A DNA stretch of 64,000 nt from Chloroflexota bacterium (GTDB taxonomy: Bacteria; Chloroflexota; Limnocylindria; Limnocylindrales; CSP1-4): positions 575 to 64,574 of the forward strand of contig JBFMEV010000014.1 in NCBI GenBank assembly GCA_040752335.1, written 5' to 3'. Below the pieces are notes generated by a model. It did not search any database and had not been told where the DNA came from. It worked only from the letters and a program-made list of their open reading frames with translations. Both the position numbers and the translations under genes were made by a program. Below, in pieces: positions 4,611 through 14,302 of the stretch. Within the stretch, counting starts at the first letter, position 1; each line of letters opens with the position of its first letter.

Positions 4611-5096
4611 TCAGATGGGAAGGGCGGTCGTGCGCTTGACTTCGGCCAGAACCAGGCTGGTCTGGATCCGGGCGACGCCCGGCAGGGGGGTGAGCTTCTC
4701 GACGACGAACCGCTCGAGCGCGCGGCGATCGGGCAGGGCGACCTTGAGGACGTAGTCGAACGGCCCGGTCACGTGGTGGCACTCGAGCACCTCCGGCATC
4801 CGGCCCAGGAGCTCGCGGGTCCGGTTGACCCGCTCGGCGTCGTGGAGCTGCATGCCGACACTGATGAGGCAGAGCAGGTCGAAGCCCGCCTTCTCGATGT
4901 CGACGATCGCCGCGTAGCCTTGGATGACGCCGGCCGACTCGAGGCGACGGACCCGGGCATGCGTGGCGGCGGGGGACAGGCCAATCCGGCGGGCGAGATC
5001 CAGGTTGGACAGGCGTCCGTCCAGCTGGAGCGTCCGAAGGATCGATCGGTCGAGGTCGTCGAAGGGCTGGGCGTACACGGGCCCACCGTCAGTCAT
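4611..5096 (-). CDS. Lrp/AsnC family transcriptional regulator
   Basis: DDLDRSILRTLQLDGRLSNLDLARRIGLSPAATHARVRRLE; C-terminal ECHHVTGPFDYVLKV. Confidence 0.95.
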   Translation of the reverse strand: MTDGGPVYAQPFDDLDRSILRTLQLDGRLSNLDLARRIGLSPAATHARVRRLESAGVIQGYAAIVDIEKAGFDLLCLISVGMQLHDAERVNRTRELLGRMPEVLECHHVTGPFDYVLKVALPDRRALERFVVEKLTPLPGVARIQTSLVLAEVKRTTALPI

Positions 5097-5320
5097 TGGA
5101 TCGCCTCCGTCAACGGATGTTCGACACTACCAGACTTCTTCCGAATACTAGATGGTGAACAACCACATGTACCGAAGGATATTCTGTCCACAGCGAGTTG
5201 CCGCACGGCTGGCCCGCCCGAAGACACGGCGCGGTCCAGGTCACGTCCGGGACGGTCTTGGCCCGCGACAGGAGGACTGGGCTCGCTGCCGATCCGCGTG
5301 TCGAGGGCGAAGTCCATTCT

Positions 5321-5370
5321 TGATGCCCGTTGTCGCATCACGGCGGTGGTTGATGCTGCAACGGACATCA
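5321..5370. promoter_or_regulatory. Two 20-bp pseudo-palindromes TGATGC-N8-(G/A)CATCA, 30 bp apart; candidate operator
   Basis: tgatgcccgttgtcgcatca (5321-5340) and tgatgctgcaacggacatca (5351-5370), which are also near reverse complements of each other; lies between divergent lrp and acyl-CoA dehydrogenase genes. Confidence 0.55.
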
Positions 5371-5436
5371 GCTGCCGGGCGCGGTTTCGACGGAACCGGC
5401 TGAGCATCGCTCGCGGGACGTGCCATCATCGGGCCC

Positions 5437-6675
5437 GTGGCCATCGACCTCCGCCTGACCGACGAGAACCGCCTGGTCCAGGCGACCGTCCGCGACTTCG
5501 CCGAGCGGGAGATCGACCCCTACATTCGCGAGTGGGACGCGAATGGCGAGGTCCACCGCGAGATCTTCGCGAAGATGGCCGAGATCGGCCTCCTGGGCGC
5601 GCCGATCCACGAGCAATGGGGCGGCGCCGGCATGGACTACACCAGCTTCGCGATCATCTGCGAGGAGCTGGAGCGGGCGGACACCGCCTTCCGGGTCGTC
5701 CAGAGCGTCCACGTCGGGCTGAACTCGCTGACCCTGATGCAGTGGGCCACCGAGGACCAGAAGCAGCGCTGGCTGGTGCCCCAGGCCCGGGGCGAGAAGC
5801 TGGCGACGTTCGGGCTGACCGAGCCGGGTGTCGGGACGGACGCGGCGAACCTCGCCACGACGGCGGGCCGCGACGGCGACGCCTATGTCCTCAACGGCGA
5901 GAAGATCTGGATCAGTCTGGCCGACATCGCCGACCATTTCCTCGTCTTCGCCTCGGTCGATCGATCGCTCAAGCACAAGGGCATCACGGCCTTCGTCCTG
6001 GAGCGGGGGATGCCCGGCCTGACAACGGGCACGCTCCACGGCAAGCTCGGGATCCGGGCCGGCAACACCGGCACGATCCAGATGCAGAACGTCCGGGTCC
6101 CGCTCGAGCACCGGATCGGCGAGGAGGGCGAGGGCTTCCTTATCGCCATGAGCGCCATCGACCAGGGCCGGTTCACCGTTGCGGCCGGGAACGTCGGCCT
6201 GGCCCAGGCGTGCCTCGACGCGTCCCTCCGCTACGCCCACGAGCGCCACACCTTCGGCGAGGAGATCGGGCGCCACCAGCTCGTCAAGCAGATGCTGGCG
6301 AAGATGGTCGCCGGCATCGAGGCCGGCCGGCTCCTCGTCTGGCGGGCGGCGTTCCTGAAGAACCATGGCGTCCGGAACACCCGCGAGACGTCGCTGGCGA
6401 AGTGGCACGCCACCGACCACGCGGTCGCCAGCGCCCTCGACGCGATCCAGATCCACGGCGCCAACGGCTACTCCAACGAGTTTCCGGTGGAGCGCTACCT
6501 CCGCAACTCGAAGGCGGCCGTCATCTACGAGGGCACAAGCCAGCTCCACACCCTCATCCAGGCCGACTATGCCCTGGGCTACCGCGAGGACCGGCCGCTC
6601 CGCTGCGAGCCACTGCCGGCCCAGGGCTACGAGCGGCTGCCGGTGTCAACGGCGGCTGCGGCCGGGCGCGCCTGA
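5437..6675 (+). CDS. Acyl-CoA dehydrogenase
   Basis: FGLTEPGVGTDA, LNGEKIWIS, KLGIRAG, QIHGANGYSNEFPVERYLRNSKAAVIYEGTSQ. Confidence 0.95.
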   Translation: MAIDLRLTDENRLVQATVRDFAEREIDPYIREWDANGEVHREIFAKMAEIGLLGAPIHEQWGGAGMDYTSFAIICEELERADTAFRVVQSVHVGLNSLTLMQWATEDQKQRWLVPQARGEKLATFGLTEPGVGTDAANLATTAGRDGDAYVLNGEKIWISLADIADHFLVFASVDRSLKHKGITAFVLERGMPGLTTGTLHGKLGIRAGNTGTIQMQNVRVPLEHRIGEEGEGFLIAMSAIDQGRFTVAAGNVGLAQACLDASLRYAHERHTFGEEIGRHQLVKQMLAKMVAGIEAGRLLVWRAAFLKNHGVRNTRETSLAKWHATDHAVASALDAIQIHGANGYSNEFPVERYLRNSKAAVIYEGTSQLHTLIQADYALGYREDRPLRCEPLPAQGYERLPVSTAAAAGRA

Positions 6676-6707
6676 CGGACTCCGCGAGGCCCGCGCCGGC
6701 CGTCACC

Positions 6708-8753
6708 GTGGGGCCGTTCAGCCCCGACGAGCTCCGGACGCTTGCCGTCCTCGCCGAGACGTTCGTCCCGACCGCCGACGGGCCGCGGATCGCCGCGCTC
6801 GCGGCCGAAGCGCTCGTCCGGGCGGCCGACCCGGACCAGGTCCGCCAGCTCCGCCTGGTCCTGGGCCTCCTGGAGACGCCCCTCGTCAACCTCCTGACCG
6901 CCGGCCGGTGGCGGGGCCTGTCACGGCTCCCGCCGCGGGAGCGGGAGCGGCTGCTGCTCCGCTGGGCCCACTCGCCGATCGACCTGAAGCGGTCTGGCTT
7001 CCAGGCCTTCCGGAAGCTCCTGTCGTTCCTCGCTTACGCGGTGCCGGCGCCCGATTCGACGGGCCGCGAATCGGGGCCGCTCTCGACCGTCGACTACCGG
7101 CCGGACGGGCCTCCGACGACCGAGGCACCGACGCCGGTGCGGGTCATCGACGTCGATCGGTCAGCCGGCGGCACGACGGTCGAGCTGGAGGCCGACGTCA
7201 TCGTCGTGGGCTCCGGGGCGGGCGGCGGGGTCGTCGCGGCCGAGCTCGCCGCAGCCGGGCGGAGCGTCCTCGTCCTCGAGGCCGGGCCGTTCGTCGACGA
7301 GGCGACGATGCCGCGGACCGAGCTCGACGCCTTTTCCCGGCTGTACCTGAATCACGGGCTGCTGACGACCTGGGACGCGTCGATCAGCCTGCTTGCCGGC
7401 TCGGCCGTCGGCGGCGGGACCGTCGTCAACTGGACGACCTCGGTCGACATCCCGCGCGGCGTCCGCCGAGAGTGGGCCCGCGACCATGGCCTCGACGGTG
7501 TCGACGGCTCGGAGTGGGCCGGCGACCGCGAGGCGATCGAGCGGGAGCTGGGCGTGGCCCCGGCCGCCGCTGCGGCGCCAAAGGACGCGGCGTTGTCCCG
7601 TGGCGCGACGACCCTGGGCTGGGAGGTCGCGCCGACCCGGCGCAACGCGGTCGGCTGCGATGATTGTGGGGCCTGCCCGTTCGGCTGCCCGCGCGGCACC
7701 AAGCAGAGCGGCCTGCGGGTCCACCTCGCCGCGGCCGTCGGGGCGGGGGCTCGCATCGTCGACCGCGTCCGGGTGACCCGGCTGCTGCTCGACGGCGATG
7801 CCGTGGCCGGCGTCGACGCCAACCTCCTCGTGACCGACCCGGCCACCGGGATGCCCGTCCTTGCCCGGCCCGGCGACCCGACGGCAGCTCGGTCACGCCG
7901 GCTCGTCGCCCGGGCGCGACAGGTCGTCCTCGCCGCCGGCGCTCTCCGGAGCCCCCAGGTCCTCCAGCAGACCGGCCCGACCCACCGGGCGGTCGGGCGG
8001 TACCTCCGGCTCCACCCGGTGCCCGTCATCGCCGGGCGATACGCCGAGCCGATCCACATGTGGCGGGGCGTGATGCAGGCGGCTCGCTCGGCGGAGTTCA
8101 CCGAGCCGGCGGCCGGGCGCGAGGGCTACGTCATCGAATCCGCGCCGGGCCATCCCGGGCTCCTGGCCCTGGCCCTGCCATGGGACGGCGCGACCGACCA
8201 CGCGGACTGGCTCGGCGACGGCCACCGGATCGGGCCGCTCATCGCCGTGACCCGCGACGGCGGCTCTGGCCGGGTGTCGGTGACGCCGGCCGGCCGCGTC
8301 CGGATCGACTACGAGCTTGACGACATCGGGGTGGCGACTCTTCGGCACGCCCTGGGCTCGATGGCCCGGATCGCGCGGGCCGCCGGGGCGGTCGAGATCG
8401 CGGCGGCCTCGACGCCGCTCGTCCGACATCGGGTCGACGGCGGCCCCGACGAGGCGCTCCGGTTCGGTGACTTCCTGGAGGACCTCGGACGGCTCGACTT
8501 CGGATCGAACCGCGGCTCGGTCTTCTCGGCTCACCAGATGGGCACGGTCCGGATGGGCGCGGAGCCCGCGGGTCACGCGGCCGACGAGCGTGGCCGCGTT
8601 CGCGGGCCGGACGGCCGCCCGATCCGAGGCCTCTACGTGGCCGACAGCTCGACCTTCCCGACGGGGATCGGGGTCAACCCGATGCTGGCGGTCATGACGA
8701 TGGCGAGGCGGGTCGCCCGGACCGTCAGGGCCGAGGGACGGGCCTCGGGCTGA
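6708..8753 (+). CDS. GMC family FAD oxidoreductase (long-chain alcohol oxidase-like)
   Basis: VIVVGSGAGGG FAD motif, LAGSAVGGGTVVNW, CPFGC, SAHQMGTVRMG, YVADSSTFPTGIGVNPML; start uncertain (GTG 6708). Confidence 0.9.
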   Translation: MGPFSPDELRTLAVLAETFVPTADGPRIAALAAEALVRAADPDQVRQLRLVLGLLETPLVNLLTAGRWRGLSRLPPRERERLLLRWAHSPIDLKRSGFQAFRKLLSFLAYAVPAPDSTGRESGPLSTVDYRPDGPPTTEAPTPVRVIDVDRSAGGTTVELEADVIVVGSGAGGGVVAAELAAAGRSVLVLEAGPFVDEATMPRTELDAFSRLYLNHGLLTTWDASISLLAGSAVGGGTVVNWTTSVDIPRGVRREWARDHGLDGVDGSEWAGDREAIERELGVAPAAAAAPKDAALSRGATTLGWEVAPTRRNAVGCDDCGACPFGCPRGTKQSGLRVHLAAAVGAGARIVDRVRVTRLLLDGDAVAGVDANLLVTDPATGMPVLARPGDPTAARSRRLVARARQVVLAAGALRSPQVLQQTGPTHRAVGRYLRLHPVPVIAGRYAEPIHMWRGVMQAARSAEFTEPAAGREGYVIESAPGHPGLLALALPWDGATDHADWLGDGHRIGPLIAVTRDGGSGRVSVTPAGRVRIDYELDDIGVATLRHALGSMARIARAAGAVEIAAASTPLVRHRVDGGPDEALRFGDFLEDLGRLDFGSNRGSVFSAHQMGTVRMGAEPAGHAADERGRVRGPDGRPIRGLYVADSSTFPTGIGVNPMLAVMTMARRVARTVRAEGRASG

Positions 8754-9834: not shown

Positions 9835-9929
9835 AGCAGGGTGGTCCAAGATGCGGGGAGTGTAGCGGGCCGCTATGGCCTAGTCCAGTAGTCCAATGTT
9901 GCCGTTCGGTTACGGCCGGGCGAGGCCGG

Positions 9930-10763
9930 TCAGGCCGCCGCCGCGGCGCCGCCCGAGACCGGCCGGCACTCCCGGCAGGCCCGGTAGCCGGCGGCGGTGG
10001 CGGCCGCGAGCGACCGGAACGGGACGCGGTGCCGCTCCGTGATTCGCTTCGCGTTGTGGCACGTCGGCAGGCAGACCACGTGGGTCGTGTCCGAGCCGAG
10101 GAACCGGACCCCGGCCCGGGCCGCGATCTCCAGGGCCTCGGGATCCAGGCCCTCGGCGGCGAGGATCGTCCGCTTGGCAGCCGGGCCGCCGAGCGAGTAC
10201 TGGCCGATGGACCCGTCGCTCCGGACGACACGGTGACACGGGACGATGAGCGGCACGGGATTGTGGGCCAGGGCCGTGCCAACGGCCCGCACTGCCTTCG
10301 GTCGGCCGATCTCCGCCGCGATCCAGCCGTACGGCCGGACCTCGCCCCGCGGGATCTCGAGGGCCTTGGCGAGGACCGCGGCCTCGAACGCGGTCCGGCC
10401 CCTCAGGTCGAGCGGGATCCGGACACGCCGGTCGCCGGCGAGGCGGGCGGCGATCGCCCGGGCCAGCTCCGGCGGGACGGCGGCGGCGCGCCCGAGCGGC
10501 CGCCCGACCTGCGCGCCGAAGCGCGCCTCGAAGCCCGCGACGTCGCCCTCGGCCGCGCGGTCCACGGCCGAGACACCGCGGCCGTTCCAGGCGACGACGA
10601 TCGGCCCGAGCGGCGAGGGCAACTCGGCATAGCGGTCGGCAAGGCCAACCTCGACGAGGACGCTCGCGGCGAACGAGGGTGGTGCGGTCGTGGCAAGGGC
10701 GGTCAAGTCGGTCTCCAGTCGGTCCGTGGGGGCGACGGTCGGGCGGGTCGATCGAGGGCTCAT
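9930..10763 (-). CDS. ogt: Methylated-DNA-protein-cysteine methyltransferase with C-terminal Ada-type Zn-binding domain
   Basis: IPRGEVRPYGWIA, AVRAVGTA, NPVPLIVPCHRVV; C-terminus CLPTC-X26-CRECRP with four Cys. Confidence 0.9.
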   Translation of the reverse strand: MSPRSTRPTVAPTDRLETDLTALATTAPPSFAASVLVEVGLADRYAELPSPLGPIVVAWNGRGVSAVDRAAEGDVAGFEARFGAQVGRPLGRAAAVPPELARAIAARLAGDRRVRIPLDLRGRTAFEAAVLAKALEIPRGEVRPYGWIAAEIGRPKAVRAVGTALAHNPVPLIVPCHRVVRSDGSIGQYSLGGPAAKRTILAAEGLDPEALEIAARAGVRFLGSDTTHVVCLPTCHNAKRITERHRVPFRSLAAATAAGYRACRECRPVSGGAAAAA

Positions 10764-11365
10764 GCGGTCATCTCCCCGTGGTTGATGGCGAGGTCGGGAT
10801 CGCTGGCGAGAACGACTCGCAGCTGGGCCAGGCCGCGGCTGACCTGGGCCTTCACGGTCCCCTCTGGGCGACCGAGCGCGACCGCCGTCTCGGCGACCGA
10901 CAGGCCGTCGACGTGGCGGAGGACGACGGCCGAGCGCGGGCCGGGGGGCAGAGCGAGGAGCGCGGCGGCAAGCCCCCGGATCGTCTCGCGCCGTGCCGCC
11001 CGCTCATGGGGCGAAGGCCCGGCCTCGGGGAAGGTCGCGTCCCCACCGGCTTCCACGATCGGCTCCAGCTGGAGCGGCGGCGTCCGCTCGTCGAGGCGCC
11101 GCCGGCGGTTGCGGGCCAGGTTGACGACGATCGAGGCCAGCCACGGTCGGAGCCGAAGGGCCCGGATCCGGTCCGGTTCGTAGCCGGCGATCGCCCGGTA
11201 GGCCCGGACGAAGGCGTCCTGGGCGACCTCCTCGGCATCCCGGGGGTCGCCCAGCAGGCGCAGGGCGATCGAGTAGCAGCGGTCCTGGTGGGCGCGGAGG
11301 AGCGCCTCGAACGACGCGTCGAGGTCGAGCGCGAGGCGATGGGCGAGCGCGACGTCGGTGTCCAT
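10760..11365 (-). CDS. ECF sigma-70 factor
   Basis: Region 2 DAEEVAQDAFVRAY and LRPWLASIVVNLARNRRR; region 4 GLSVAETAVALGRPEGTVKAQVSRGL; stop overlaps ogt start. Confidence 0.92.
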   Translation of the reverse strand: MDTDVALAHRLALDLDASFEALLRAHQDRCYSIALRLLGDPRDAEEVAQDAFVRAYRAIAGYEPDRIRALRLRPWLASIVVNLARNRRRRLDERTPPLQLEPIVEAGGDATFPEAGPSPHERAARRETIRGLAAALLALPPGPRSAVVLRHVDGLSVAETAVALGRPEGTVKAQVSRGLAQLRVVLASDPDLAINHGEMTA

Positions 11366-11451
11366 CGACGTCTTCAACACGGCGGCCGCGACATTCGTTG
11401 CAGTGTGCTCCGCGCCATCGATCGTAGGCGTGCTCGGCCAGGCGGGCTCGG

Positions 11452-12111
11452 TCAGGCGGGCTCGACGACCTCGACCTCGCCGGTCGGCTGGACCAGGAAG
11501 ATCCAGATGTCCCAGGCGACGTGGCTGACGATGAGGGCACCGAGCGGGGCCCCGGCGGCGTACAGCGCACACCAGTGGGCGCCGGCCACCCCGGCCGCGC
11601 CGAGCAGGGTGAAGTTGCCCGACGTCACGTGGACCCCGCCGTAGGCGCCGGCCGCGATCGCGGCTCCCCGCCAGCGCCCGAACCGGCGCATCAGGGCCGC
11701 CTGGATGAAGCCGCGCCAGAAGAGCTCCTCTGCCGGCCCGACGATCGTCGCCAGGCGGGTCGCGATCTCGCTCTGAGGCAGGAGCATCCGGAGGGCGTAG
11801 ATCTCGCGGATCTCGGCGTCGCCGCCTGGGACGAAGCGTCGGGCGAACCGGTCGCCGACCTGGAAGGTGACGTACAGCACTCCCGCCGAGAGCAACCCAA
11901 GCGGAACGTGCCACCATCGGATCCGGGCCCGGCGGGCCGGGCCCGAGAGAAGCAGCGCGAGGCTGCCCAGGCTCACGCCGGTCCAGGTCATCCGCGTCCA
12001 GAACCGCTCGCGCGGGCCCCGGAAGGTCGCCGTGAAGGCCGCGCTCGCGGCGGCCAGCCCGACGGCTAGGGCGAGGGTGCCCGGCCGGTCGTCGACCTCG
12101 CGCTCAGCCAC
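11452..12111 (-). CDS. CPBP (type II CAAX/Rce1-like) intramembrane metalloprotease
   Basis: PAEELFWRGFIQ, YGGVHV, IVSHVAWD motifs; hydrophobic; GTG start inferred. Confidence 0.88.
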   Translation of the reverse strand: MAEREVDDRPGTLALAVGLAAASAAFTATFRGPRERFWTRMTWTGVSLGSLALLLSGPARRARIRWWHVPLGLLSAGVLYVTFQVGDRFARRFVPGGDAEIREIYALRMLLPQSEIATRLATIVGPAEELFWRGFIQAALMRRFGRWRGAAIAAGAYGGVHVTSGNFTLLGAAGVAGAHWCALYAAGAPLGALIVSHVAWDIWIFLVQPTGEVEVVEPA

Positions 12112-12131
12112 GCTGGCCGGTCCCGGGCGGC

Positions 12132-14186
12132 TCAGCCACGCACGACCCCGGCGAGGAGCAGCCCGATGACGAGGAACCCCCCGAAGGCCAGGTGGAGCCT
12201 GGCGGTCTGGAGGTCGATCATCGCGATCGCCCGGGCCTGGCCCGTCGCCCCGAGCTCGGCCGAGCGGACGACCTGGGCGAGAAACGGCAGCGACACGATC
12301 GCCAGGAGCGTCGGCGGCGGCAGGAGCGAGAAGGCGACCGACAGGCCGAGCGTGATGTAGGCCCCCAGGACGAGGGCGACGTAGCCGTAGTGGGCCCAGT
12401 CCTTGCCGACCCGGGACGACAGCGTCACGATGCCGGCCCGGGTGTCCTCGCTGATGTCGCGCCACTCGTTGCCGTGGAGGATGGCGGCCACGAGGAGTCC
12501 CACCGGCACCGACAGAACGACGGCCACAGGGCTCCAGGCCCCGGTCACGGCGAAATAGCTGCCGACGACCATGAGCGGGCCCATGAGCAGGAACACCAGC
12601 GGCACGCCGAGGGCCCGGTACTTGTACTGGAGCGGCGGCGCCGTGTAGCCCCAGCCGCCGATCAGCCCGGCCAGGCCGAGGGCCACGATCGCCGGGCCGC
12701 GGAGGACCACGAGGTACAGGCCCACCGCGACCGCCAGGAGGAAGGCCAGGCCGGCGACCAGGAACGCGCCGCGCTCGGTCATCCGGCCCTTGACGATGGC
12801 GTGGCTCGCCCGCGGCGAGACGATCGTGTCGATGCCCTGGCGGACGTCGTAGATCTCGTTGACGATGTTTGTCCCGGAGTGCAGGAGGACCGCCCCGGCC
12901 AACGCGGCCAGGAACGGCAGCCAGTCGAACCGGCCGTCGACGGCCGCGAGCGCGGCGCCGGCGCTGACCGGGATGACGGATGCCGTGTAGGCGAACGGCC
13001 GGACGATCTCCCAGGTCGCCCCGAGCCGCCGCCGGACGGTTTCCGCGGCGCCGAGGCGCCGGTCGTCGGCGAGCGCCGAAGCAGGCGCCGCCACGACCTC
13101 GGGCGCCACCGTCTCCTCCGGCGCCGGCGCAACCCACCGGGCGGTCGCCGGCAGCTCGGCATACATCGCCGCCGCCGCGATGAGCTCGTCGATCTGGCGC
13201 TCCTCCTGGAGGACGGGCTGGAGGAGCGGCAGGCCCAGGCCCGTCTCGACGTGGAACGCCAGGGCCTTCGCGGCGACGTCCTCGCGAGTGCCGCAGAGCA
13301 TGAAGGCATCGAGGAGCTCGTCGGGAATAAGATTCCCCGCGAGGGTGTAGTCCTCGGCCCGCCAGGCCACGGCGATCCGGTCTCGCAGCTCGACCTCGAA
13401 GCCGGCCCGCCGCAGGGACACGTCGGACAGGACCGACATCATGTAGATGACGAACGGCTCGCGCTTCGCCCGGTTGAGGGCCTCGCGCCGCGTCCGGTCG
13501 ACGAGCGACAGGAGGTAGCCGGCGGTCTCGATCGAGCCCGGGTCGCGACCTGCCTCGATGGCCGAGGCCCGGAGCCGCTCCAGGATCCCCCGGAGCGAGG
13601 GGATCGACTCGGCCGGCCGGGCCAGGTAGCCGTCGGCCTTCTGACCCGCGAGCTCCACGAACGCCCGGCGGTACGCCGCGATGACGAGCGCGATTCGGTG
13701 GGGCGGCGGGAACATCGGCTGGATCGGCGGCAGACCGGGCGTCGCCGACGGCAGCCGCTCGCCGGCCCACAGGGCCCGGATCTGGTCCATCGCGGTGGAC
13801 ACCCGCTCGACGGCTGCATCGGGCTCGTACGGGATGCCCATCTGCTTCAGCCGCAGCGGCAGGCCCGTGCCCAGGCCCATGACGATCCGGCCGGGCAGGA
13901 TTTCGTCGAGGGCCGAGCCAGTCATCGCCAGGACGACCGGATGCCGGGTGAACGGGTTGACCGCGCCGAGGGCGACCCGGAAGCCGCCGTCCTCGTTCTC
14001 GCCGTCGCGGGCCAGCCCGTCGACGACCGTGGTCGCGAACGAGACCGCGTCCCGCTCGAAGTACGAATCGTGGATCCAGAGCGACTCCAGGCCCGCGTCG
14101 CGGGCGCGCCGGGCCCAGTCGAGGACGTCATCCGGATCGTCCCGGGCGGCCAGGCCGAGGCCGATGGGGCGGGCGAGGGTGCGCAT
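12132..14186 (-). CDS. Fusion: N-terminal luciferase-like (LLM, Mer-like) oxidoreductase plus C-terminal UbiA/MenA-type prenyltransferase
   Basis: N-terminus LWIHDSY, AVNPFTRHPVVLAM, GRIVMGLGTG; C-terminus WEIVRPFAYTAS, NIVNEIYDVRQGID, WGYTAPPLQYKY, NEWRDISEDTRAG; one continuous frame through an Ala/Pro linker. Confidence 0.88.
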   Translation of the reverse strand: MRTLARPIGLGLAARDDPDDVLDWARRARDAGLESLWIHDSYFERDAVSFATTVVDGLARDGENEDGGFRVALGAVNPFTRHPVVLAMTGSALDEILPGRIVMGLGTGLPLRLKQMGIPYEPDAAVERVSTAMDQIRALWAGERLPSATPGLPPIQPMFPPPHRIALVIAAYRRAFVELAGQKADGYLARPAESIPSLRGILERLRASAIEAGRDPGSIETAGYLLSLVDRTRREALNRAKREPFVIYMMSVLSDVSLRRAGFEVELRDRIAVAWRAEDYTLAGNLIPDELLDAFMLCGTREDVAAKALAFHVETGLGLPLLQPVLQEERQIDELIAAAAMYAELPATARWVAPAPEETVAPEVVAAPASALADDRRLGAAETVRRRLGATWEIVRPFAYTASVIPVSAGAALAAVDGRFDWLPFLAALAGAVLLHSGTNIVNEIYDVRQGIDTIVSPRASHAIVKGRMTERGAFLVAGLAFLLAVAVGLYLVVLRGPAIVALGLAGLIGGWGYTAPPLQYKYRALGVPLVFLLMGPLMVVGSYFAVTGAWSPVAVVLSVPVGLLVAAILHGNEWRDISEDTRAGIVTLSSRVGKDWAHYGYVALVLGAYITLGLSVAFSLLPPPTLLAIVSLPFLAQVVRSAELGATGQARAIAMIDLQTARLHLAFGGFLVIGLLLAGVVRG

Positions 14187-14302
14187 GGCTGGCTCCAGGT
14201 CGGCGGCTCCGGGCGACGACACCGCCCGTGGCAAGCGCCCACATGCTACCACGGTGTAGCCGGTTATTCGCCAGCCCGCCGGCCGTGCGACAATCGCCGG
14301 CG

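What the first reader, a model, noticed from the sequence alone, without database searches (positions are those of the whole stretch)
9930..11402. ECF sigma coupled to an Ogt-Ada(Zn) fusion: possible sigma-factor-based alkylation response
Seen: the ECF stop overlaps the start of a protein with an extra N-terminal helix (RLETDLTALATTAPPSFAASVL), an intact PCHR alkyltransferase and a C-terminal four-Cys Ada metal site, but no AraC DNA-binding domain. This reverses the E. coli Ada order. GCAAC..CGTGTT on the minus strand at 11376-11402 resembles an ECF promoter. Known: Ada senses methylphosphotriesters through a Zn-bound Cys; ECF genes are usually co-transcribed with their anti-sigma. Inference: the repair protein acts as an anti-sigma that releases the ECF when it is self-methylated.
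Basis: partly seen in the sequence, partly recalled or inferred. Interest (0 to 1): 0.75.

Follow-up and report, generated by a model that had tools for sequence, protein, structure and literature searches.

The report
Sigma factor paired with alkyl-repair protein

Summary
An ECF sigma gene (11365-10760, minus strand) overlaps by ATGA a 277-aa protein (10763-9930). That protein has a 39-residue N-terminal extension, a complete O6-alkylguanine alkyltransferase (PCHR, Cys176) and a C-terminal Ada Zn(Cys)4 domain, and no AraC HTH.

The proposed promoter is real as a conserved element. GCAAC-N16-G(T/G)GTT lies 36 nt before the ATG in 75 of 75 Limnocylindria relatives, and also in Acidimicrobiia, Dormibacterota and cultured Actinomycetota. 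This points to a self-driven, leaderless operon.

The pair is not new. The ECF classification lists 6-O-methylguanine methyltransferases next to group ECF122, with mechanism unknown.

- The N-terminal extension aligns with helices 3-4 of a class I zinc anti-sigma domain that relatives carry in full (zf-HC2, HxxxCxxC).
- The extension, not the Ada-Zn domain, tracks the sigma gene. Every extension-bearing Ogt sits behind a sigma; Ogt-AdaZn proteins without it do not.

Best reading, about 50%: the repair protein is the sigma's consumable inhibitor. Binding and release by alkylation are inferred and untested. The window's version lacks the zinc-finger half of the anti-sigma domain. Verdict: a new member of a known, uncharacterised kind.

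The parts
11376..11401 (-). ECF-type promoter: -35 GCAAC (11401-11397) and -10 G-T-G-T-T (11380-11376), 10 nt before the sigma ATG. Predicted leaderless or near-leaderless start.
   Evidence: Single match in the window against 0.04 expected. GCAAC and GTT are invariant in 75/75 Limnocylindria loci, with GCAAC-to-ATG spacing of 36 nt in 57 and 35-38 nt in the rest. The motif is present in 50/63 sigma-linked loci of other lineages.
10760..11365 (-). ECF sigma factor, 201 aa, sigma2 plus sigma4 only (ECF122-like by gene context).
   Evidence: Pfam Sigma70_r2 and Sigma70_r4_2; NCBIfam sigma70-ECF superfamily at 84.9 bits against a cut-off of 42.9. The promoter-anchored ATG is in frame in 75/75 loci.
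10760..10763 (-). ATGA overlap of the sigma stop and the Ogt-Ada start (translational coupling).
   Evidence: The same 4-nt overlap occurs in 75/77 Limnocylindria loci and in most loci of other phyla.
9930..10763 (-). Ogt-AdaZn fusion protein, 277 aa.
10650..10730 (-). Residues 12-38: two conserved helices (L23, A27, P28 and L36 invariant or nearly so). They are homologous to helix 3 (C-terminal part) and helix 4 of a class I anti-sigma domain.
   Evidence: AF2 helices 12-22 and 29-38. No gaps in this segment across 76 sequences, against 38% gaps in residues 2-13. Alignment with ZAS-bearing relatives (hhalign P 8e-5).
10149..10646 (-). O6-alkylguanine-DNA alkyltransferase, N- and C-domains (residues 40-205). 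Acceptor Cys176 is at 10236-10238 within PCHR (10230-10241).
   Evidence: PF01035 E 1.8e-29. E. coli Ada-C 1sfe: sequence E 4.5e-20, fold TM 0.80. Y145, R159, N168, C176, H177, R178, Y189, S190 and E204 are invariant.
9960..10112 (-). Ada-type Zn(Cys)4 domain (residues 218-268), with Cys231 (equivalent to Ada Cys38), Cys235, Cys263 and Cys266.
   Evidence: PF02805 at 35 bits against a cut-off of 23. N-Ada 1adn/1wpk by sequence and 1u8b by fold. Cys conservation.

Best explanation
This is one copy of a widespread two-gene unit. An ECF sigma factor is translationally coupled to an N-terminally extended O6-alkylguanine alkyltransferase, which here also carries an Ada-type Zn(Cys)4 methyl-acceptor domain.

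Shown:
- The pair and its ATGA overlap are conserved in many phyla.
- A conserved ECF-type promoter (GCAAC-N16-GTGTT) lies directly before a start codon with no room for a normal leader.
- All catalytic and metal-binding residues are intact.
- The N-terminal extension is the remnant (helices 3-4) of a class I anti-sigma domain that relatives still have in full.
- The extension is found with the sigma gene and is missing where there is no sigma gene.

Inferred:
- The sigma factor transcribes its own leaderless operon.
- The repair protein, made in about equal amounts, binds the sigma2 domain through the helix-4 remnant and keeps it off RNA polymerase.
- Irreversible alkyl transfer from damaged DNA to Cys176 (O6-alkylguanine), and here possibly also to Cys231 (methylphosphotriester), inactivates, destabilises or occupies the inhibitor and frees the sigma factor.
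- Freed sigma raises synthesis of both proteins until fresh repair protein re-captures it.

The unit would thus sense alkylation damage by consumption of the repair protein.
For: - Domains and residues.
- Pair and overlap: 75/77 Limnocylindria loci. A sigma lies directly upstream in Gemmatimonadota and Acidimicrobiia, in 63/69 loci of a second scan and in 69/70 of a third. These include cultured Nonomuraea, Actinomadura, Streptosporangium, Spirillospora, Nocardiopsis and Actinokineospora.
- Promoter footprint.
- Anti-sigma ancestry: zf-HC2 hits above cut-off in relatives P0157, P0159 and P0169, and HxxxCxxC in 13 of the best 150 representatives. P0159 lies directly behind an ECF sigma. The window's residues 11-38 align after the CxxC of these domains.
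- Extension tracks sigma: an extension HMM hits 42/63 sigma-linked loci against 0/6 unlinked. Ogt-AdaZn proteins without the extension have no sigma upstream (also L160 and L247).
- Published work: helix 4 of class I anti-sigma domains binds sigma2 regions 2.1/2.2, the site that contacts RNA polymerase, and carries 12 of the 14 top co-evolving contacts (PMC7406223).
- No other anti-sigma candidate lies next to the pair. The flanking genes vary by lineage.
Against: - The window's protein has only two of the four anti-sigma helices, no HxxxCxxC and no Pfam anti-sigma hit.
- Helix 1, the conserved sigma4 contact in class I domains, is missing.
- The homology of the extension to helices 3-4 is statistically modest on its own (hhalign probability 61%).
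- The AF2 model places the extension confidently (pLDDT 78-92, pTM 0.80). It could therefore be packed on the enzyme rather than free to bind sigma. I could not inspect contacts.
- No complex prediction, expression data or experiment was available.
- The published summary files ECF122 under sigma factors without an anti-sigma factor.
Confidence: 0.5

Rival explanations
1. The repair protein is only cargo. The anti-sigma function has decayed in this short-extension lineage. The sigma factor is controlled in another way (its own transcription, turnover or an unlinked factor) and simply drives expression of a bifunctional alkyl-repair protein.
For: Helices 1-2 and the zinc site of the ancestral anti-sigma domain are gone. 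The literature summary lists the group as lacking an anti-sigma factor. The extension may be docked on the enzyme in the AF2 model.
Against: The two remnant helices are kept without a single indel in 76 sequences, with invariant A27 and P28. They recur in at least eight phyla, and only where a sigma gene lies upstream. The 4-nt overlap, which favours equal synthesis, is kept almost everywhere.
Confidence: 0.22
2. The repair protein is a positive partner, as in E. coli Ada. After methylation of the Zn-bound Cys231, and/or of Cys176, it gains affinity for DNA or for the sigma/RNA polymerase complex and stimulates transcription from the GCAAC..GTGTT promoter, with the sigma factor replacing the missing AraC HTH.
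For: The Ada Zn(Cys)4 site is intact. In E. coli Ada, methylation of the equivalent Cys38 switches on DNA binding (established knowledge; N-Ada structures 1u8b and 1wpk were matched). The domain has lost its HTH partner.
Against: Many sigma-paired relatives have no Ada domain at all: 36 of the best 150 representatives, and for example Actinokineospora. Ogt-AdaZn proteins without the extension have no sigma. The part that tracks sigma descends from an inhibitory domain.
Confidence: 0.13
3. The protein is an anti-sigma factor, but the signal is thiol oxidation or zinc loss at the Cys4 site (or at Cys176), as in zinc anti-sigma factors of the RsrA type, rather than DNA alkylation.
For: Relatives carry a classical ZAS motif. 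The window's protein has a Zn(Cys)4 cluster and a reactive low-pKa cysteine.
Against: The full set of DNA-binding and alkyl-transfer residues is invariant, so the repair activity is under selection. The window's lineage has lost the ZAS zinc site itself.
Confidence: 0.08

Closest known systems
ECF sigma group ECF122 (Casas-Pastor et al. 2021, as summarised in PMC8999054)
   Same: An ECF sigma factor with a conserved 6-O-methylguanine DNA methyltransferase gene next to it, no separate anti-sigma gene and an uncharacterised mechanism. The model protein comes from an actinobacterium, and the pair found here also occurs in Actinomycetota.
   Different: I could not run the group's own HMM or retrieve its model protein, so assignment rests on gene context. 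The summary does not mention the anti-sigma-like N-terminal extension, the zinc-finger forms or the C-terminal Ada-Zn domain seen here.
E. coli Ada (adaptive response regulator)
   Same: One polypeptide carries both a Zn(Cys)4 methylphosphotriester acceptor and a PCHR O6-alkylguanine acceptor. Irreversible self-methylation is plausibly the signal, and the system drives its own synthesis.
   Different: The domain order is reversed and there is no AraC-type HTH. Promoter recognition would come from a separate sigma factor. The likely logic is release of an inhibitor, not activation of a DNA-binding protein.
Class I zinc anti-sigma factors (RsrA, ChrR, RslA; Pfam zf-HC2)
   Same: The gene lies directly behind, and is coupled to, an autoregulated ECF sigma gene. 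Relatives of this protein have the complete domain with HxxxCxxC. The window's helices align with helices 3-4.
   Different: The window's protein keeps only two helices and no zinc ligands. The sensor module is a DNA-repair enzyme rather than a redox-sensitive zinc site or a membrane or periplasmic domain.
Mycobacterium tuberculosis Ogt and stand-alone bacterial Ogt proteins
   Same: The same two-domain alkyltransferase fold and active site.
   Different: Stand-alone Ogt proteins have no N-terminal extension, no Ada-Zn tail and no sigma gene upstream (L093-L095, L158, L162, L165 and L166).

Membership tests
ECF sigma factors, group ECF122 | Sigma2 and sigma4 domains only, ECF-type | tested here: met
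   PF04542 and PF08281 hits; TIGR02937 at 84.9 bits against a cut-off of 42.9; 201 aa.
ECF sigma factors, group ECF122 | Conserved 6-O-methylguanine DNA methyltransferase gene in the neighbourhood, with no separate anti-sigma gene | tested here: met
   Ogt lies directly downstream in 77/77, 63/69 and 69/70 loci. The feature is as stated in PMC8999054.
ECF sigma factors, group ECF122 | Match to the group's own profile, or close relation to its model protein (Cellulomonas sp. Root930) | not testable with these tools
   The paper's supplements are not held. The model protein was not among the loci returned. Whole-genome search was shut.
O6-alkylguanine-DNA alkyltransferase (Ogt/AGT) | PF01035 domain with the PCHR acceptor cysteine, Arg finger, Asn hinge, Tyr and Glu of the active-site network | tested here: met
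   E 1.8e-29. C176, H177, R178, R159, N168, Y145, Y189, S190 and E204 are invariant in 76 sequences.
O6-alkylguanine-DNA alkyltransferase (Ogt/AGT) | Two-domain AGT fold | tested here: met
   Foldseek 1sfe: E 2.7e-11, target TM 0.80; also M. tuberculosis, human and archaeal enzymes.
O6-alkylguanine-DNA alkyltransferase (Ogt/AGT) | Stoichiometric alkyl transfer from DNA | not testable with these tools
   Needs an enzyme assay.
Ada N-terminal Zn(Cys)4 methylphosphotriester domain | PF02805 above cut-off with four Cys ligands in the pattern CxxxC...CxxC | tested here: met
   35 bits against 23. C231, C235, C263 and C266 are conserved. There is a weak match to the N-Ada structures.
Ada/AdaA transcriptional regulators | AraC-type helix-turn-helix following the zinc domain | tested here: not met
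   No HTH_AraC hit. The protein ends 9 residues after the zinc domain.
Class I anti-sigma domain (ASDI / ZAS) | Four-helix N-terminal domain | tested here: not met
   Only two helices (12-22 and 29-38) precede the Ogt fold.
Class I anti-sigma domain (ASDI / ZAS) | HxxxCxxC zinc motif or a zf-HC2 profile match | tested here: not met
   No motif and no Pfam hit even at E up to 1 for residues 1-44. Relatives P0157, P0159 and P0169 do match, at 24-28 bits against a cut-off of 22.2.
Class I anti-sigma domain (ASDI / ZAS) | Encoded directly downstream of, and co-transcribed with, its ECF sigma gene | tested here: met
   ATGA overlap conserved in 75/77 loci.
Class I anti-sigma domain (ASDI / ZAS) | Homology of the extension to part of a bona fide domain | tested here: inconclusive
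   hhalign places residues 11-38 on positions 38-66 of the ZAS domain (P 8e-5, probability 61%). The register is consistent with the adjoining Ogt domain.
Class I anti-sigma domain (ASDI / ZAS) | Binds and inhibits its sigma factor | not testable with these tools
   Structure prediction here takes a single chain only, and no natural fusion was found. P0172 and P0235 are frameshifted gene calls.

The most novel reading that the evidence does not exclude
A suicide DNA-repair enzyme serves as a consumable anti-sigma factor, and a two-helix remnant of the class I anti-sigma domain is enough to hold the sigma2 domain. In this lineage either of two irreversible methyl acceptors, Cys176 for O6-alkylguanine or zinc-bound Cys231 for methylphosphotriesters, would free one sigma molecule per lesion repaired. 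That would give a lesion-counting, self-resetting alkylation response built on a sigma factor instead of an Ada-type activator.
Probability: 0.35. Interest if true: 0.8.

Novelty: new member of a known kind. Interest (0 to 1): 0.55.

Why it matters
If the repair protein really is the sigma factor's inhibitor, this would be a signalling principle not yet demonstrated for ECF sigma factors: the sensor is destroyed stoichiometrically by the damage it repairs. It would also be a second, independent solution to the adaptive response to alkylation, beside Ada.

The unit is present in many soil phyla and in cultured actinomycetes, including Nonomuraea, Actinomadura, Streptosporangium, Spirillospora, Nocardiopsis and Actinokineospora. 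The idea is therefore directly testable.

The range of forms also makes a natural deletion series for asking how little of an anti-sigma domain is needed. These forms are the full zinc-finger domain, the two-helix remnant, and each of these with or without the Ada-Zn tail.

Tried and rejected
1. Natural sigma-Ogt fusions that could have been folded as one chain. The two long candidates, P0172 and P0235, are frameshifted gene calls full of wrong-frame low-complexity sequence. No locus has the two genes in the same frame.
2. Public sequencing runs to map the transcript start: none were listed.
3. Other copies of the promoter, to define a regulon. There are none in the 64-kb window or in the flanks of 80 related loci. 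The only other matches are eight inside the sigma coding sequence of one sub-clade.
4. The CPBP/Rce1-like membrane protease upstream as a partner. It is rejected because it is adjacent in only a minority of loci.
5. EamA as a member of the operon. This is unlikely, because it has its own conserved -10-like TACACT just before its start codon in 48/54 loci, and it is absent from the pair's neighbourhood in other phyla.
6. Repair genes next to the pair in other lineages: none were found. Acidimicrobiia have transketolase and an MFS transporter.
7. Retrieving the ECF122 description or its model protein. The supplements are not held, and Cellulomonas was not among the loci returned.
8. Literature on an experimental test: none in the held library.

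Full report
**What is there**

All features are on the minus strand. A 201-aa ECF sigma factor is encoded at 11365-10760, with Sigma70_r2 (E 1.4e-15) and Sigma70_r4_2 (E 2.4e-14). It matches the NCBIfam ECF superfamily model but reaches no equivalog cut-off.

Its TGA stop overlaps the ATG of a 277-aa protein at 10763-9930. That protein has three parts:
- PF01035 (alkyltransferase) at residues 126-205, E 1.8e-29.
- PF02805 (Ada zinc domain) at residues 218-268, 35 bits against a cut-off of 23.
- No AraC or other HTH.

E. coli Ada-C (1sfe) and M. tuberculosis Ogt align from residue 40-45 onwards. Residues 1-39 therefore match no solved structure and no Pfam family.

AlphaFold2 on an alignment of 76 homologues gives a confident model (pLDDT 88.5, pTM 0.80), with two extra helices at 12-22 and 29-38. 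Foldseek confirms the AGT fold (1sfe, target TM 0.80) and weakly the N-Ada fold (1u8b).

The following residues are invariant in 76 sequences:
- In the alkyltransferase: Y145, R159, N168, C176, H177, R178, Y189, S190 and E204.
- In the zinc domain: C231, C235 and C266. C263 is at least 90% conserved.

Both methyl-acceptor sites therefore look functional.

**Organism and conservation**

Homologue titles place the window in Limnocylindria, phylum Chloroflexota.

- In 80 species-representative loci, a sigma homologue lies directly upstream of the Ogt-Ada gene in all 77 that have upstream DNA.
- The 4-nt ATGA (once GTGA) overlap is kept in 75 of them. The two exceptions look frameshifted.
- The EamA gene downstream is usually syntenic in this class. 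The CPBP protease upstream is adjacent only sometimes.

**Promoter**

- In 75/75 loci there is tGCAAC(C/G)G-N14-G(T/G)GTT, with GCAAC and GTT invariant.
- The distance from GCAAC to the ATG is 36 nt in 57 loci and 35-38 nt in the rest.
- That ATG is always in frame with the sigma ORF.
- The spacing varies by 1-2 nt, so the stretch between the -10 element and the ATG is non-coding.

From general knowledge of ECF promoters, the GT(C/T) of the -10 element lies at about -12 to -10. Transcription would then start at, or 1 nt before, the ATG, giving a leaderless mRNA. This is inferred, not mapped. One caveat is that the 10 nt before the ATG are purine-rich and could act as a weak ribosome-binding site on read-through transcripts.

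The same element, at the same place, precedes the sigma gene in Acidimicrobiia. It is also present in 50/63 sigma-linked loci from several phyla, including Nonomuraea, Actinomadura, Streptosporangium and Dormibacterota. Acidobacteriota pairs lack it.

No second copy occurs in the window or in the flanks of related loci. The only detectable local target is the operon itself.

**Already catalogued**

A 2022 review (PMC8999054) states that the 2021 ECF classification found 6-O-methylguanine DNA methyltransferases conserved next to group ECF122. The group is listed among sigma factors without an anti-sigma factor, with unknown mechanism and a model protein from Cellulomonas sp. Root930. The original paper's text does not mention it, and its supplements are not held. 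No paper in the library reports an experiment. Earlier notes of this scan describe the same unit in about 22 other genomes. I treated them as leads and tested their main claims below.

**What the N-terminal extension is**

A profile search of 1.84 billion representatives found 576 proteins at E <= 1e-30. The best 150 fall into these classes:

| Class | Count |
|---|---|
| Short extension + Ogt + AdaZn (the window's type) | 39 |
| Short extension + Ogt only | 36 |
| HxxxCxxC N-domain + Ogt + AdaZn | 13 |
| Longer non-zinc N-domains | 12 |
| Apparently without extension (many are fragments or frameshifted calls) | 38 |
| No PCHR motif | 12 |

P0157, P0159 and P0169 score above the Pfam cut-off for zf-HC2, the zinc anti-sigma motif. 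P0159 lies directly behind, and overlapping, an ECF sigma gene. P0157 is from a Gemmatimonadales genome and has the same arrangement.

In alignments the window's residues 14-39 (LETDLTALATTAPPSFAASVLVEV) fall just after the CxxC of these domains. That is the end of helix 3 plus helix 4, for example ELNALPRVAAPANLAESVLIRV in P0146.

A profile-profile comparison restricted to the N-terminal parts gives P 8e-5 and probability 61%. This is modest alone, but it is in register with the adjoining homologous enzyme.

Within Limnocylindria the two helices have no indels and a majority-residue fraction of 0.55, with invariant A27 and P28. Residues 2-13 are 38% gaps.

Published co-evolution and crystal data show that helix 4 of class I anti-sigma domains binds sigma2 regions 2.1/2.2, the RNA-polymerase contact. 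Helices 1-3 bind sigma4 (PMC7406223). The window's protein keeps the sigma2-binding part and has lost the sigma4-binding, zinc-holding part.

**The extension, not the Ada domain, goes with sigma**

Two further scans of species genomes gave these counts:

| Scan | Loci with a sigma homologue directly upstream |
|---|---|
| Second scan | 63/69 |
| Third scan | 69/70 |

The loci span Chloroflexota (Limnocylindria and Ktedonobacterales), Actinomycetota (Acidimicrobiia and six cultured genera), Acidobacteriota, Dormibacterota, Eremiobacterota, Binatia and Entotheonella, among others.

- The seven loci without a sigma all have an Ogt that lacks the extension motif.
- An HMM of the Limnocylindria extension hits 42/63 sigma-linked proteins at E < 1e-3 and 0/6 unlinked ones.
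- Ogt-AdaZn fusions without the extension (P0196, P0211, P0205, P0185, L160) have unrelated genes upstream: DeoC, a DinB-type polymerase, a hydrolase and others.
- Sigma-paired forms without any Ada domain are common.

The conserved core is sigma plus extension plus alkyltransferase, and the Ada-Zn tail is an add-on that this lineage has.

**How it most likely works**

The shown facts fit a self-regulated sigma/anti-sigma pair in which the inhibitor is a suicide repair enzyme. Equal synthesis by coupling, sequestration through the helix-4 remnant, release when the enzyme is alkylated or engaged on damaged DNA, and re-capture by newly made protein are all inferred.

I give this about 50%. The main reasons for caution are:
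- The window's form has only half an anti-sigma domain.
- The extension may be packed on the enzyme in the model.
- No complex could be predicted. The structure tool takes single chains, and no natural fusion exists. P0172 and P0235 are frameshift artefacts.

The rivals are:
- A decayed anti-sigma function with the repair protein as mere cargo (about 22%).
- An Ada-like positive role of the methylated protein (about 13%).
- A thiol or zinc redox signal (about 8%).

**Verdict**

The finding is real, accurately described and biologically attractive. It is a further member of a unit that is already catalogued (ECF122-type) and that recurs widely.
- The extension-sigma correlation.
- The mapping of the extension onto helices 3-4 of a zinc anti-sigma domain.
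- The cross-phylum promoter footprint with a leaderless start.
- A list of cultured carriers in which the idea can be tested.

Noticed in passing
window 9859-9864 (-) and 9847-9849 (-): The EamA transporter gene downstream has its own conserved -10-like hexamer, TACACT (or TAGACT/TATGCT), 5-12 nt before its TTG start in 48/54 Limnocylindria loci. It looks like a separate, near-leaderless transcription unit rather than part of the sigma operon.
   Followed up: partly
window 9898-9902 (-) and 9876-9895 (-): A second GCAAC lies about 57 nt before the eamA start in 12/54 loci, including the window (shuffles give a mean of 3.4 and at most 10). In the window and in L010, L017, L035 and L063 it is followed by a near-palindrome, TGGACTACTGGACTAGGCCA, which is unique in the window. 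There is no matching -10 GTT at the right spacing. It could be a vestigial or auxiliary sigma site or an operator. Unexplained.
   Followed up: partly
window 12132-14252 (-): One 706-aa ORF joins a luciferase-like monooxygenase domain (PF00296) to a UbiA prenyltransferase domain (PF01040). A CPBP/Rce1-like protease gene follows at about 11452-12150.
   Followed up: no
window 6900-8753 (+): The C-terminal part of the long ORF 4773-8753 is a GMC oxidoreductase (PF00732 and PF05199). The N-terminal 700 residues of that ORF have no family match and are probably not coding in that frame.
   Followed up: no
L021, L043, L048, L053, L057, L069, L074, L079, about 200-300 nt into the sigma gene: One Limnocylindria sub-clade has a second full match to GCAAC-N16-G(T/G)GTT inside the sigma coding sequence. 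It could be an accident of the codons for a conserved Asn-Arg-rich segment or an internal promoter.
   Followed up: no
L038 and L076: These are the only two Limnocylindria loci without the ATGA overlap. Both show a frame break in the sigma or Ogt gene, from assembly errors or pseudogenes.
   Followed up: no
P0147, P0154, P0171, P0189, P0199 (representative proteins): Some Ogt-AdaZn relatives carry a helical N-terminal domain of about 70 residues with no HxxxCxxC and no Pfam match. This may be a non-zinc anti-sigma domain or a third type of N-terminal module.
   Followed up: no
L104, L111, L116, L122 (Acidobacteriota / Thermoanaerobaculia): Sigma-Ogt pairs of these lineages lack the GCAAC..GTT element upstream of the sigma gene. 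Promoter specificity seems to differ within the family.
   Followed up: no
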